Assembly: GCF_009914755.1 (NCBI RefSeq)
Contig: NC_060929.1
Direction: 5' to 3' (one strand)
Length of the DNA: 64,000 bases
Source of the DNA: the human T2T-CHM13v2.0 reference genome, Homo sapiens
Both the position numbers and the translations under genes were made by a program. The notes under the pieces are model-generated. The model ran no database searches. It was given only the letters and a program-made list of their open reading frames with translations, and had not been told where the DNA came from. This document shows, piece after piece, positions 28,059 through 30,340 of this stretch (within the stretch, counting starts at the first letter, position 1; the number at the start of each line of letters is the position of its first letter).

Positions 28059-30340
28059 GAGGGATGGCCCGGGCCAGATGCTACAGAGAGAGACATGCAG
28101 GGAGCTAGTTAGTCAGGGGTTCAGATCTAGGGAGGGTGCATTTGTGAATTCCTTTTTAGGAAGTGTGTTTGAAGTTAATATGATGAAACTTACACTTCAT
28201 ATAGAGGAGAGTATGAAAGAAGGGAAAGTGCATCAAACCTGTGCGTTTCACAGTAGAAGCTCCGTCCTCACAGCTTAGTAAACACCAATGATCCTGTCTC
28301 TAATTCTCTGTCTGTAAAAGGTTCTTTTGAACCCCAGGAAAAGTAGTTGACATGAGAAAAGCGTGCTTCTTGGACAGAGGTGAGGGAGTAGGCAGGAGAG
28401 TGGTATAAAGTGATAGGTGGTTTGCAGACGCGGGCACGTCAGGGAACCTTTGCAGACAGGTGGCCCTAGCTGATGTCCCTAGACCTTGCTCAGTTGAGTT
28501 CTTTGTGCACATCTCCCACTGGGCTCCTCTGGCCCAGAGATGAGGTTGTCTGCTGAAAGATGCAGTAAAGAGGCTTTAAAGATTTTGTGGCCTTGAACCA
28601 ATCACACAAGCAAGGCTGAAAGGACTGAGCCTAAAATGGAGCTGCCCCTGAATGATCTGAGTCTTCATCAGGCAGCACCTTGCACACAGACCATCATCTG
28701 ATGATGGGAACAAACTTGTGTTTGGGTGAAACAGGCTTCCCCATTGCAGTTACTATAACACCTGTGTGGTAGTAAGGTGCAGAATTACTCAATGCCCACT
28801 TCAAGTTTACCATTGAGATGATTTCCCACCCCCCTCCTCTAACTGGCACCATTGCCCATAACTAATTTCTTGCTCTCCCCAGGTGCCTCAAGAACCTCTT
28901 GGGGGCCTTTATATTCTGTCATGCTTACCTAGCTGATCGGGACATGGAGTGTCTGTCTTAGTAACCAAGCCTCAGTCAGCTAAAGGAGCTGCATCTGATT
29001 CATATCCTAATGTGGACCACCAATCTTGAGCCCCTTGGAGCTCTGCTAGAGAAAGTTGCTGCTACTCTCGAGACCCTCACGTTAAAGGACTGTCAGATCC
29101 AGGACTCCCAACTCAGGCTCCTCCTGCCTGCCCTGAGCCACTGCTCCCAGCTCACCACCTTCTACTTTCATGGAAACGAGACCTCCATGAATGCTCTGAA
29201 AGACCTGCTGTGTCACACAGGCGGGCTGAGCAAGTTAGGCCTGGAATTGTATCCTTCCCGTCTGGAGAGTCTTGACAACAGGGGTCATGCCAATTGGGAG
29301 ATCCTTGCCCCAATTCGGGCTGAGCTGATGTGTACAGTCAGGGAAGTCAGGCAGCCCAAGAGGATCTTTTTTGGTCCCGTCCCCTGCCCTTCCTGTGGCT
29401 CATGGCCATCTGAGAAAGTGGACCTCCATCTTTGCTCTTAGGGAAGGCCTGATTAGTGGGATGGATACGCTTTCTTCTGGACCCTTGGGCACTAAAATCT
29501 AGGACACAGGTGCTTTTTTTTTTTTGATGGAGTCTCGCTCTGTCCCTCAGGCTGAAGTGCAGTGGCACAATCTCAGCTCACTGCAACTTCCACCTCCCAG
29601 GTTCAAGTGATTCTCCTGCCTCAGCCTCCCTAGTAGCTGGTGTTACTGGCATGCACCACCACACCCAACTAATTTTGTATTTTTTTTTCTTTTTTTTTTT
29701 TGAGACGGAGTCTCGCTCTGTCACCCAGGCTGGAGTGCACTGGCACGACTTCGGCTCACTGCAACCTCTGCCTCCAGGGTTCACGCCATTCTCCTGCCTC
29801 AGCCTCCAGAGTAGCTGGGACTACAGGTGTCCACCACCACACCCAGCTAATTTTTGGTATTTTTAGTAGAGTCAGGGTTTCACCAAGTTAGCCAGGATGG
29901 TCTCAATCTCCTGACCTCGTGATCCACCCGCCTCGGCCTCCCAAAGTGTAATTTTTGTATTTTTAGTAGAGACAGGGTTTCACGATGTTGGAGGAGGCTG
30001 GCCTCAAACTCCTGACCTCAAGTGATCTGACTACCTTGGCCTTCCACAGTGCTGGGTTTACAGGCATGAGCAGCCTGGCCCGGTCAGGTGCATCTTAAAG
30101 GAAGCACACGGTCATGTGTTTCAGGCACGTGCTGACTGTGAGTGGAAAAACAAAGGTGACTCAGCTGGGGGCAGAACTGGGTGAAAATGCTGACTTGGCA
30201 TCAATAAAGCCTTCAGGGACCTGTTTCCTAGACTCAGAAATGGAACCTGAAGTTCTAGAATGATGCAGGAGTTACCCTCGCACGGATGGTTATTTAAAAA
30301 TGTCAAAAATAAATGGAACCTGAATGGAAAAAAAAAAAAA
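28059..30340 (+). pseudogene. 5'-truncated, intron-retaining retrocopy of a PRAME-family gene (PRAMEF10/16/17-like last exon)
   Basis: TSD AGAAAGACTCTGCCCA at 28043-28058 and 30341-30356; AATAAA at 30308; A13 tail at 30328-30340; acceptor ttgctctccccag| at 28882; PRAME LRR frame 28884-29441 (CLKN...[12 protein letters not shown]...[15 protein letters not shown]) with in-frame TAG TAA at 28959-28964. Confidence 0.92.
29514..30083 (-). mobile_element. AluS with a nested, slightly 5'-truncated younger Alu (about 29686-29948) in the PRAMEF retrocopy 3'UTR
   Basis: Outer TSD caggtgc; inner duplication taatttt(t)gtattttt. Confidence 0.85.

What the first reader, a model, noticed from the sequence alone, without database searches (positions are those of the whole stretch)
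28861..30340. Natural gene trap: phase-compatible NLN exon 1 to PRAMEF chimeric terminal exon
Seen: the retrocopy is sense to NLN and supplies a branch-point-like ACTAAT, a polypyrimidine tract, an acceptor and two AATAAA signals (30203, 30308). NLN exon 1 ends in phase 2 (AG|) and the PRAMEF exon starts G-TGC, so the splice is in frame: [39 protein letters not shown] (39 aa). The only frame lesions in the exon are two adjacent stops (TAG TAA at 28959-28964, probably from CAG TAC). Without them the product would be a 199-aa presequence-PRAME LRR fusion. Inference: an intronic-polyadenylation isoform that escapes junction-dependent NMD, could attenuate mitochondrial NLN or yield a micropeptide; other primates may retain the open fusion.
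Basis: partly seen in the sequence, partly recalled or inferred. Interest (0 to 1): 0.75.

Follow-up and report, generated by a model that had tools for sequence, protein, structure and literature searches.

The report
Intron-retaining PRAMEF retrocopy inside NLN intron
A young retrocopied fragment of a PRAME-family gene that kept part of its own last intron lies in the first intron of neurolysin, so it carries a real splice acceptor and poly(A) signal in the right direction and frame, but I found no evidence that the host gene uses it.

Summary
The sequence facts hold. NLN exon 1 ends in phase 2. AG|G at 28881-28883 is a strong acceptor. The joined frame gives the stated 39-aa peptide, ending at TAG TAA (28959-28964). 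AATAAA lies at 30203 and 30308.

The element is larger than reported. It spans 28058-30341 and is flanked by a 14-15 bp target-site duplication (28043/28044-28057 and 30342-30355). It ends in an A14 tail that the chr1 relative lacks. It is 98.3% identical over 2274 bp to a PRAMEF locus on chr1, including about 825 bp of that gene's last intron.

It is therefore an L1-type retrocopy of an unspliced, 5'-truncated PRAMEF pre-mRNA. The branch point, pyrimidine tract, acceptor and both poly(A) hexamers are the parent's own, not chance. The two stops arose on chr5: 7 of 7 chr1 paralogues read CAG TAC.

Use as an NLN terminal exon is untested. The supplied RefSeq table has no such exon. The parent's GU-rich downstream element was not copied. 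The intronic-polyadenylation tables I could read list no NLN intron-1 site.

Verdict: real gene-trap-like architecture, most likely a neutral pseudogene used rarely if at all.

The parts
18161..18201 (+). NLN exon 1 coding part (41 nt, ends in phase 2). The donor is CAG|GTACCT.
   Evidence: The native continuation into exon 2 gives [24 protein letters not shown]…
28043..28057 (+). 5' target-site duplication, (A)GAAAGACTCTGCCC. The 14-nt core is 28044-28057.
   Evidence: The 14-mer occurs exactly twice in the 64-kb window, at the two borders of the chr1 homology.
28058..28882 (+). Segment derived from the last ~825 nt of the parent PRAMEF gene's intron 3. It includes the branch-point-like ACTAAT (28861-28866), the pyrimidine tract and the acceptor AG (28881-28882).
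   Evidence: window 28057-30330 matches L002 958-3227 at 98.3% over 2274 bp; parent exon 3 ends at L009 8356 (CAG|GTAAGA), intron 3 is 8357-9378, and the retrocopy's 5' end corresponds to about 8555; the acceptor region is conserved in 6 of 6 intron-bearing paralogues.
28717..28809 (+). Short exon-3-like fragment inside the intron-derived part. It is an internal duplication inherited from the parent.
   Evidence: tblastn of P0002 residues 168-195 at 55% identity; the same hit in the parent at L009 9213-9305; a 50-nt stretch recurs about 1.07 kb upstream in the chr1 copies.
28883..29441 (+). PRAMEF last coding exon, corresponding to residues 289-474 of a 474-aa PRAMEF17 protein. It has two adjacent derived stops (TAG TAA, 28959-28964) and the native stop TAG at 29439-29441.
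29442..30327 (+). PRAMEF 3' UTR with nested antisense Alu elements (about 29505-30075), inherited from the parent. AATAAA at 30203-30208 and 30308-30313.
   Evidence: The alignment to L002/L003 runs unbroken through the Alus. The context of the upstream AATAAA is also present in L002 and L003.
30328..30341 (+). A14 poly(A) tail. At most the first 3 A's are templated, because the parent reads GGAAAC at this point.
30342..30355 (+). 3' target-site duplication, GAAAGACTCTGCCC.

Best explanation
The element at 28058-30341 is an L1-mediated, semi-processed retrocopy. A polyadenylated PRAMEF transcript from the chr1p36 cluster was reverse-transcribed from its natural poly(A) site while its last intron was still unspliced. 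The copy was truncated, or began, 199 nt into that intron, and it inserted in sense orientation into NLN intron 1.

Because intron sequence came along, the copy carries the parent's own branch point, pyrimidine tract and acceptor, its whole terminal exon and both poly(A) hexamers. That is the layout of a splice-acceptor/poly(A) gene trap. The parent's last intron is phase 2, like NLN intron 1, so the frames agree and even the junction codon, AG|G (Arg), is the same.

After insertion the copy drifted as a pseudogene. It shows 15 chr5-specific changes in 2209 aligned columns, including two adjacent nonsense changes.

My committed reading is that it is a neutral intronic pseudogene. NLN pre-mRNA uses it at most at a low level as an alternative terminal exon, giving a non-functional short transcript that could encode the 39-aa peptide. 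It does not appreciably lower NLN output.

Shown: origin, borders, inherited signals, frame, and derived stops. Inferred: low usage and neutrality.
For: - Own-genome search: window 28600-29510 matches chr1 12.3-12.9 Mb copies over its full length, best 99% (L002), including 283 nt upstream of the acceptor.
- The homology is unbroken over window 28057-30330, 98.3% over 2274 bp, through both Alus.
- The homology stops at an A14 run that the parent lacks. An exact 14-mer direct repeat abuts both borders.
- The bottom strand at the nick reads TTTCT/AATG. This resembles the L1 endonuclease site TTTT/AA (consensus recalled, not from a call).
- Parent exon map from tblastn with a 474-aa PRAMEF17 protein: exon 2 at L009 7097-7375, exon 3 to 8356, last exon from 9379. 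The chr5 copy therefore starts in intron 3.
- The window holds only residues 289-474. The chr1:146.96 Mb copy (L008) holds residues 1-472 without introns, which serves as a fully processed control.
- Stops are derived: 7 of 7 paralogues read CAG TAC.
- Low usage, annotation: the supplied RefSeq table lists no NLN exon at 28883.
- Low usage, poly(A) site: the parent's GU-rich downstream element (…CTGGTGTCTT…) was not copied. T content in the 40 nt after cleavage is 0.43 in the parent, against 0.15 on chr5 counting the tail and 0.30 after the tail.
- Low usage, splicing: the template RNA itself had failed to splice at this acceptor.
- Low usage, published tables: NLN does not occur in the held supplements of PMC5928244 or PMC10960005. 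In PMC11541570 it is listed only in the sheet 'ratio > 0.8'.
Against: - The acceptor looks strong. Its ad hoc score of 17 exceeds 7 of 7 annotated AG acceptors in the window (10-16), and only 12 of 2494 intron-1 AGs reach it.
- It is transcribed about 25 kb before the exon 2 acceptor, which would favour it kinetically (inference).
- Both AATAAA hexamers are intact.
- Two nonsense changes among 5 chr5-specific coding changes is more than expected: P about 0.009-0.013 for 2 or more of 5 under simple mutation models. This test is post hoc. It could hint that an expressed in-frame fusion was selected against.
- Absence from RefSeq and from three supplement sets is weak evidence. Those sets are partial, reads from a 98%-identical multi-copy family are often discarded, and one relevant supplement could not be read.
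Confidence: 0.7

Rival explanations
1. A working natural gene trap. A meaningful share of transcripts from the upstream NLN promoter splice from exon 1 to 28883 and are polyadenylated near 30225 or 30327. This lowers mRNA for the mitochondrial NLN form and/or produces a 39-aa peptide from a transcript that escapes junction-dependent NMD.
For: - A native, strong acceptor with a conserved branch-point motif.
- A complete terminal exon of about 1.45 kb with two AATAAA hexamers.
- Sense orientation and matching phase.
- The stop lies in the would-be last exon, so no junction lies downstream.
- A precedent exists. In VRK2-EIF3FP3, a host exon splices in sense to an acceptor 327 bp upstream of a retrocopy and the transcript ends at the retrocopy's own poly(A) signal (PMC5010893, section read).
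- There is a post hoc excess of nonsense changes.
Against: - No such exon in the supplied RefSeq table.
- No NLN intron-1 site in the intronic-polyadenylation supplements that could be searched.
- The native downstream element was lost.
- The template RNA had this intron unspliced.
- The alternative NLN first exons at 36733 and 48391 lie downstream and bypass the element.
- A strong sense-oriented trap in a first intron would be expected to be selected against, yet the copy has persisted for about 0.7% divergence.
Confidence: 0.12
2. The acceptor is used, but the exon is internal rather than terminal. One of the donor-like sites inside 28883-30330, or an Alu-derived site, splices onward to NLN exon 2. 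This makes a poison exon whose transcript is degraded by NMD.
For: Four internal donor-like sites (29510, 29607, 30088, 30156) match the donor consensus at 7 of 9 positions (G accepted at +3). The NLN exon 1 donor scores the same. The 3' UTR holds antisense Alus, a known source of exonised sequence (recalled).
Against: The resulting exons would be 627-1273 nt long, which is poor for exon definition. No such exon appears in the supplied annotation. Nothing was tested with RNA data.
Confidence: 0.05
3. The fragment is transcribed on its own, as an independent non-coding RNA from a cryptic promoter, and not as part of NLN.
For: Some human-specific retrocopies are transcribed from new start sites (PMC5010893).
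Against: The parent promoter and exons 1-3 were not copied. No RefSeq functional element overlaps 28058-30341 in the supplied table.
Confidence: 0.05
4. A DNA-level segmental duplication of part of a PRAMEF gene, not a retrocopy.
For: Intron sequence and Alus are included and the identity is high. On their own these would suggest a genomic duplication.
Against: The copy ends exactly at the parent's poly(A) site, about 14-17 nt after AATAAA. It carries a non-templated A14 tail and is flanked by a perfect 14-15 bp direct repeat of target sequence.
Confidence: 0.02

Closest known systems
Semi-processed (partially processed) retrocopies, e.g. murine preproinsulin I (as described in PMC3449122; passages read)
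   Same: Made by retroposition of an incompletely spliced pre-mRNA. It has a poly(A) tail, flanking direct repeats, a new chromosomal location and retained ancestral intron sequence.
   Different: Here only part of one intron plus the last exon was copied. The 5' end lies inside the intron, and no promoter or start codon came along. The copy is a pseudogene, and its retained intron end matters only because it lies in another gene's intron.
Host-gene/retrocopy chimeric transcripts ending at the retrocopy's own poly(A) signal, e.g. VRK2-EIF3FP3 (PMC5010893; section 8 read)
   Same: A young retrocopy in sense orientation in a host intron. A host exon splices to an acceptor at the retrocopy, and the transcript ends at the retrocopy's poly(A) signal, truncating the host ORF and adding a short new tail.
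   Different: In that case the transcript was shown by RACE and the acceptor was a fortuitous one in flanking DNA. Here the acceptor is the parent gene's own, brought in by intron retention, and no transcript has been shown.
Premature termination of host transcripts by intronic L1s and nested genes (Kaer et al. 2011, PMC3192792; search listing and abstract start seen, and as summarised in PMC7290577)
   Same: An intronic insertion offers splice and poly(A) signals that can cause exonisation and cryptic polyadenylation of the host transcript.
   Different: Those cases rest on measured transcripts. This one rests on sequence alone.
TRIM5-CypA of owl monkeys (recalled, not from any call)
   Same: A retrocopy in a host intron, in sense and in frame, joined to upstream host exons by splicing.
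   Different: That fusion keeps an open, functional ORF. Here the frame closes after 25 codons and only 14 host residues would be kept.
PRAMEF17-type processed retrocopy at chr1:146.96 Mb (L008; listed as a PRAMEF17 retrocopy in Table S9 of PMC4558860)
   Same: Same gene subfamily, also retroposed, about 88-90% identical to the chr5 exon.
   Different: It is fully processed: residues 1-472 are contiguous with no intron, so it carries no acceptor. The chr5 copy is not among the 6 PRAMEF rows found in that table.

Membership tests
L1-mediated retrocopy | Ends at the parent's polyadenylation site with a non-templated poly(A) tail | tested here: met
   The A14 run at 30328-30341 follows AATAAA (30308). 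The parent reads GGAAACTTTCTGG at this point.
L1-mediated retrocopy | Flanking target-site duplication | tested here: met
   GAAAGACTCTGCCC at 28044-28057 and 30342-30355. These are its only two occurrences in the window.
L1-mediated retrocopy | Insertion at a T-rich/AA endonuclease-type target | tested here: met
   The bottom strand at the nick reads TTTCT/AATG (read). The consensus TTTT/AA is recalled.
L1-mediated retrocopy | New genomic location, parent promoter absent | tested here: met
   The copy is on chr5 and the parent family on chr1. Only residues 289-474 are present.
Fully processed pseudogene | All parental introns absent | tested here: not met
   About 825 nt of parental intron 3 are present upstream of the last exon. 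It is therefore filed as semi-processed.
Semi-processed retrocopy | Retrocopy hallmarks plus retained parental intron sequence | tested here: met
   Definition taken from PMC3449122.
Alternative terminal exon / intronic-polyadenylation isoform of the host gene ('natural gene trap') | Sense orientation inside a host intron, with a 3' splice site (branch point, pyrimidine tract, AG) | tested here: met
   (sequence level only).
Alternative terminal exon / intronic-polyadenylation isoform of the host gene ('natural gene trap') | Complete poly(A) signal: hexamer plus a downstream U/GU-rich element | tested here: inconclusive
   Both hexamers are present. The native downstream element was not copied. 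The first TGT-containing stretches start about 48 nt after the cleavage site, beyond the tail and duplication.
Alternative terminal exon / intronic-polyadenylation isoform of the host gene ('natural gene trap') | Transcripts joining the host exon to this exon and ending here | not testable with these tools
   No RNA-seq or 3'-end data are held. The supplied RefSeq table has no such exon. Supplement searches gave none for intron 1.
PRAME-family protein-coding gene | Full-length open reading frame (about 474 aa) | tested here: not met
   Only the last exon is present, with two premature stops.

The most novel reading that the evidence does not exclude
The retained-intron retrocopy is a working, hominid-specific alternative terminal exon of NLN. 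Transcripts from the upstream promoter splice from exon 1 to 28883 and end near 30327, which tunes down the mitochondrially targeted NLN form. The adjacent double stop was fixed because it disarmed an in-frame fusion of the NLN presequence start to a PRAME leucine-rich-repeat tail. It would then be a case where intron retention in the template RNA delivered a ready-made splice-acceptor/poly(A) cassette to another gene.
Probability: 0.07. Interest if true: 0.55.

Novelty: new member of a known kind. Interest (0 to 1): 0.3.

Why it matters
Ordinary retrocopies lack splice acceptors, so they affect host genes only through fortuitous sites. This copy shows another route. When the template RNA still holds its last intron, retroposition delivers a complete, pre-tested terminal-exon unit: branch point, acceptor, exon and poly(A) signal.

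Pipelines that define retrocopies by intron loss would be expected to miss such copies. This one is not among the 6 PRAMEF rows of a primate retrocopy table, and neither NLN nor PRAMEF occurs in the supplement of a human retrocopy/host survey.

If NLN used it, this would be a lineage-specific modifier of a peptidase with mitochondrial and cytosolic forms. Without RNA evidence it is a well-dissected pseudogene and a useful caution for annotation. RefSeq marks only 28880-29553 of a 2.3-kb insertion.

Tried and rejected
- Segmental duplication was considered after intron homology appeared. It was rejected because of the tail and the target-site duplication.
- Solved structures: no PDB sequence matched the 185-aa exon translation at E ≤ 0.001.
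- Pfam gave only a sub-threshold LRR_4 match, 17.5 bits against a cut-off of 27. Neither search added to the reading.
- Literature: 'LOC100419549' gave 0 papers. 'PRAMEF' + 'retrocopy' gave 1 paper, whose title and abstract start (all I saw) concern X-linked cancer/testis genes. 'neurolysin' + 'intronic polyadenylation' gave 0 papers.
- A search for a source on the NLN presequence and its alternative forms returned 4 papers, none specific to neurolysin by title or abstract start. The statement that Met1 gives the mitochondrial form and Met24 the cytosolic form is therefore recalled.
- Supplement searches for NLN: 0 occurrences in PMC5928244 (4 files). 0 in PMC10960005 (11 files; one PDF not searchable). 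0 for NLN or PRAMEF in PMC7290577 (1 file).
- PMC10227441's supplement could not be read.
- PMC11541570 lists NLN only in the sheet 'ratio > 0.8' (−1 in colon cancer), and lists mouse Nln; I do not expect mouse to carry this primate-family insertion (not tested).
- The age estimate cannot decide between a human-specific insertion and one shared with other apes. [quoted passage not shown]
- No splice-site program was available. The acceptor and donor scores are my own simple counts and should not be read as calibrated strengths.
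Full report
**1. The observation**

- The NLN exon 1 coding part (18161-18201) is 41 nt and ends …CGC AG|GTACCT, which is phase 2.
- At 28840-28887 the sequence reads TAACTGGCACCATTGCCCATAACTAATTTCTTGCTCTCCCCAG|GTGCC.
- ACTAAT lies at 28861-28866, the AG at 28881-28882, and the exon starts at 28883.
- Joining 18201 to 28883 gives [39 protein letters not shown], 39 aa, stopped by TAG TAA at 28959-28964.
- The frame then stays open to the native TAG at 29439-29441, so 199 codons would be open without the two stops.
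- AATAAA occurs at 30203 and 30308. There is no other AATAAA or ATTAAA in 28883-30400.

**2. What the element is**

A search of the window's own assembly with 28600-29510 gave full-length matches in the chr1 12.3-12.9 Mb PRAMEF cluster. The best were 99% (L002) and 98% (L003, opposite strand). These matches include the 283 nt upstream of the acceptor.

BLAST of 24000-34000 against the fetched loci showed one unbroken alignment. Window 28057-30330 matches L002 958-3227 at 98.3% over 2274 bp, running through the two nested antisense Alus at about 29505-30075.

At the borders:
- The chr1 sequence reads …AATAAATGGAACCTGAATGGAAACTTTCTGG….
- The window reads …AATAAATGGAACCTGAATGG + A14 (30328-30341) + GAAAGACTCTGCCC (30342-30355).
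- The same 14-mer, with a preceding A, lies directly before the first homologous base (28043/28044-28057).
- That 14-mer occurs only twice in the window.

A tail at the parent's cleavage site, an exact 14-15 bp target-site duplication and a T-rich/AA-type nick site (TTTCT/AATG on the bottom strand; consensus recalled) are the marks of L1-mediated retroposition. They exclude a DNA-level duplication.

**3. Why it has an acceptor**

A homology search with the chr1 exon gave a 474-aa 'PRAME family member 17' cluster as the best named hit, at 92%. I mapped that protein onto 10 kb of the chr1 locus (L009). The result:
- Exon 2 lies at 7097-7375.
- Exon 3 ends at 8356 (CTCAG|GTAAGA).
- Intron 3 spans 8357-9378, which is 1022 nt.
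- The last exon starts at 9379.
- The retrocopy's first base corresponds to about 8555, which is 199 nt into intron 3.

So the template was a polyadenylated RNA with the last intron unspliced. It was either 5'-truncated during reverse transcription or started inside the intron. This makes the element a semi-processed retrocopy in the sense of PMC3449122.

The branch-point motif, pyrimidine tract and AG are therefore the parent's working signals.
- The last 43 nt before the exon are identical in L002-L004.
- L005-L007 differ there at one or two positions. One of these turns ACTAAT into ACTAAC, so the CTAAY branch-point motif is kept in all six.
- The parent's last intron is phase 2. Its exon 3 ends in AG, so the native junction codon AG|G (Arg) is the same as in the NLN chimera.

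As a control, the chr1:146.96 Mb copy (L008) holds residues 1-472 contiguously. It is fully processed and has no acceptor. It is the PRAMEF17 retrocopy listed in Table S9 of PMC4558860. The chr5 copy is not among the 6 PRAMEF rows found in that table.

**4. History**

I polarised differences with L004. Of 2209 ungapped columns, 15 changes are specific to chr5 (0.68%) and 14 are shared by L002 and L003 (0.63%). The human-lineage share of human-chimpanzee divergence is about 0.6% (recalled), so the insertion dates to roughly that split. With only 15 events, the data cannot say on which side.

Five of the chr5-specific changes lie in the coding exon, and two of them are the adjacent stops.
- All 7 chr1 paralogues read CAG TAC, including the independent processed copy L008, so the stops arose on chr5.
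- Under simple mutation models 3.1-3.7% of changes in this exon are nonsense. That gives P of about 0.009-0.013 for two or more among five.
- This test is post hoc. The two changes are 5 nt apart and may be a single mutational event.

The nearest chr1 relative is itself broken, with three in-frame stops in exon 3, although its last exon is open.

**5. Does NLN use it?**

Points in favour:
- I scored acceptors by my own simple count: pyrimidines at −21 to −6, C or T at −3, G at +1, and a yTnAy motif upstream.
- The site scores 17. The 7 annotated AG acceptors in the window score 10-16.
- 12 of 2494 AGs in intron 1 reach 17, and only this site meets all of its own features, including a 65-nt AG-free zone.
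- It is transcribed about 25 kb before the exon 2 acceptor.
- The exon (about 1.45 kb) and both hexamers are intact.

Points against:
- The GU-rich element just after the parent's cleavage site was not copied. On chr5 the cleavage site is followed by A14, the duplication and then ordinary intron.
- The very RNA that was copied had not used this acceptor.
- The RefSeq table supplied with the finding shows NLN exons at 36733 and 48391 but none at 28883. Those two alternative first exons lie downstream and bypass the element.
- NLN does not occur in the held supplements of two intronic-polyadenylation studies.
- In a third study it is listed only in the sheet 'ratio > 0.8'. By the paper's text I take this to be the class truncated at 0.8-1.0 of the coding length.
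- One relevant supplement could not be read.

None of this is a direct test. No junction or 3'-end data can be queried here.

If the transcript exists, the claim that it would escape junction-dependent NMD follows from the stop lying in the last exon (established rule, recalled). Its 3' UTR would be about 1.37 kb. Only 14 residues of NLN would be kept. The native N-terminus read from the window is [24 protein letters not shown]…, with the second Met at residue 24 in exon 2. Whether those 14 residues can target anything is unknown.

**6. Comparison with known cases**

Chimeric host-retrocopy transcripts are documented. In PMC5010893, 3 of 16 human-specific retrocopies form GT-AG spliced chimeras. 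VRK2-EIF3FP3 ends at the retrocopy's own poly(A) signal. Intronic L1s and nested genes are reported to cause exonisation and cryptic polyadenylation (PMC3192792, as listed and summarised).

What is unusual here is that the acceptor is not fortuitous. It was imported with retained intron sequence.

No paper in the searched library names LOC100419549. Neither NLN nor PRAMEF occurs in the supplement of PMC7290577.

**7. Verdict**

The 'gene-trap' architecture is real, and its cause is now explained. Its use by NLN is unproven, and I judge it most likely minor.

This is a new member of a known kind and of modest interest. The interest would rise if junction reads, or an open fusion in another ape, were found.

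Noticed in passing
L009 (G000:C1:12680000-12689999), 7730-8356: The chr1 locus closest to the chr5 copy has three in-frame stops and a one-residue gap in exon 3, while exon 2 and the last exon are open. The nearest extant relative of the parent is therefore itself an unprocessed pseudogene. RefSeq's label 'PRAMEF17 pseudogene' reflects the nearest named protein (92%), not the nearest locus.
   Followed up: partly
L008 (G000:C1:146963731-146967349), 1574-2973, minus strand: A fully processed PRAMEF17-type retrocopy. Residues 1-472 are contiguous, with overlapping tblastn pieces that suggest frame shifts. It is 88-90% identical to the chr5 exon and is listed as a PRAMEF17 retrocopy in Table S9 of PMC4558860.
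   Followed up: partly
window 28717-28809 (parent: L009 9213-9305): A short exon-3-like piece, similar to residues 168-195 and including …KVQNYSMPTSS…, sits inside the last intron of this PRAMEF subfamily. A 50-nt core recurs about 1.07 kb upstream in several chr1 copies. It looks like an old internal duplication within the gene.
   Followed up: no
window 29505-30075: Two antisense Alu elements, one nested in the other, lie in the PRAMEF 3' UTR. They were inherited from the parent and are present in L002 and L003. L005 and L006 lack the stretch 29685-29948. The Alus were therefore part of the retroposed mRNA and did not insert later.
   Followed up: partly
window 30328-30341: The genomic A14 run directly after the would-be cleavage site will prime oligo(dT). 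A 3'-end peak here in standard atlases could be an internal-priming artefact on NLN pre-mRNA.
   Followed up: no
window 29510, 29607, 30088, 30156: Four donor-like GT sites inside the would-be terminal exon match the donor consensus at 7 of 9 positions (G accepted at +3), the same as the NLN exon 1 donor. Sites just upstream of the poly(A) hexamers could also damp polyadenylation through U1 binding (recalled mechanism).
   Followed up: no
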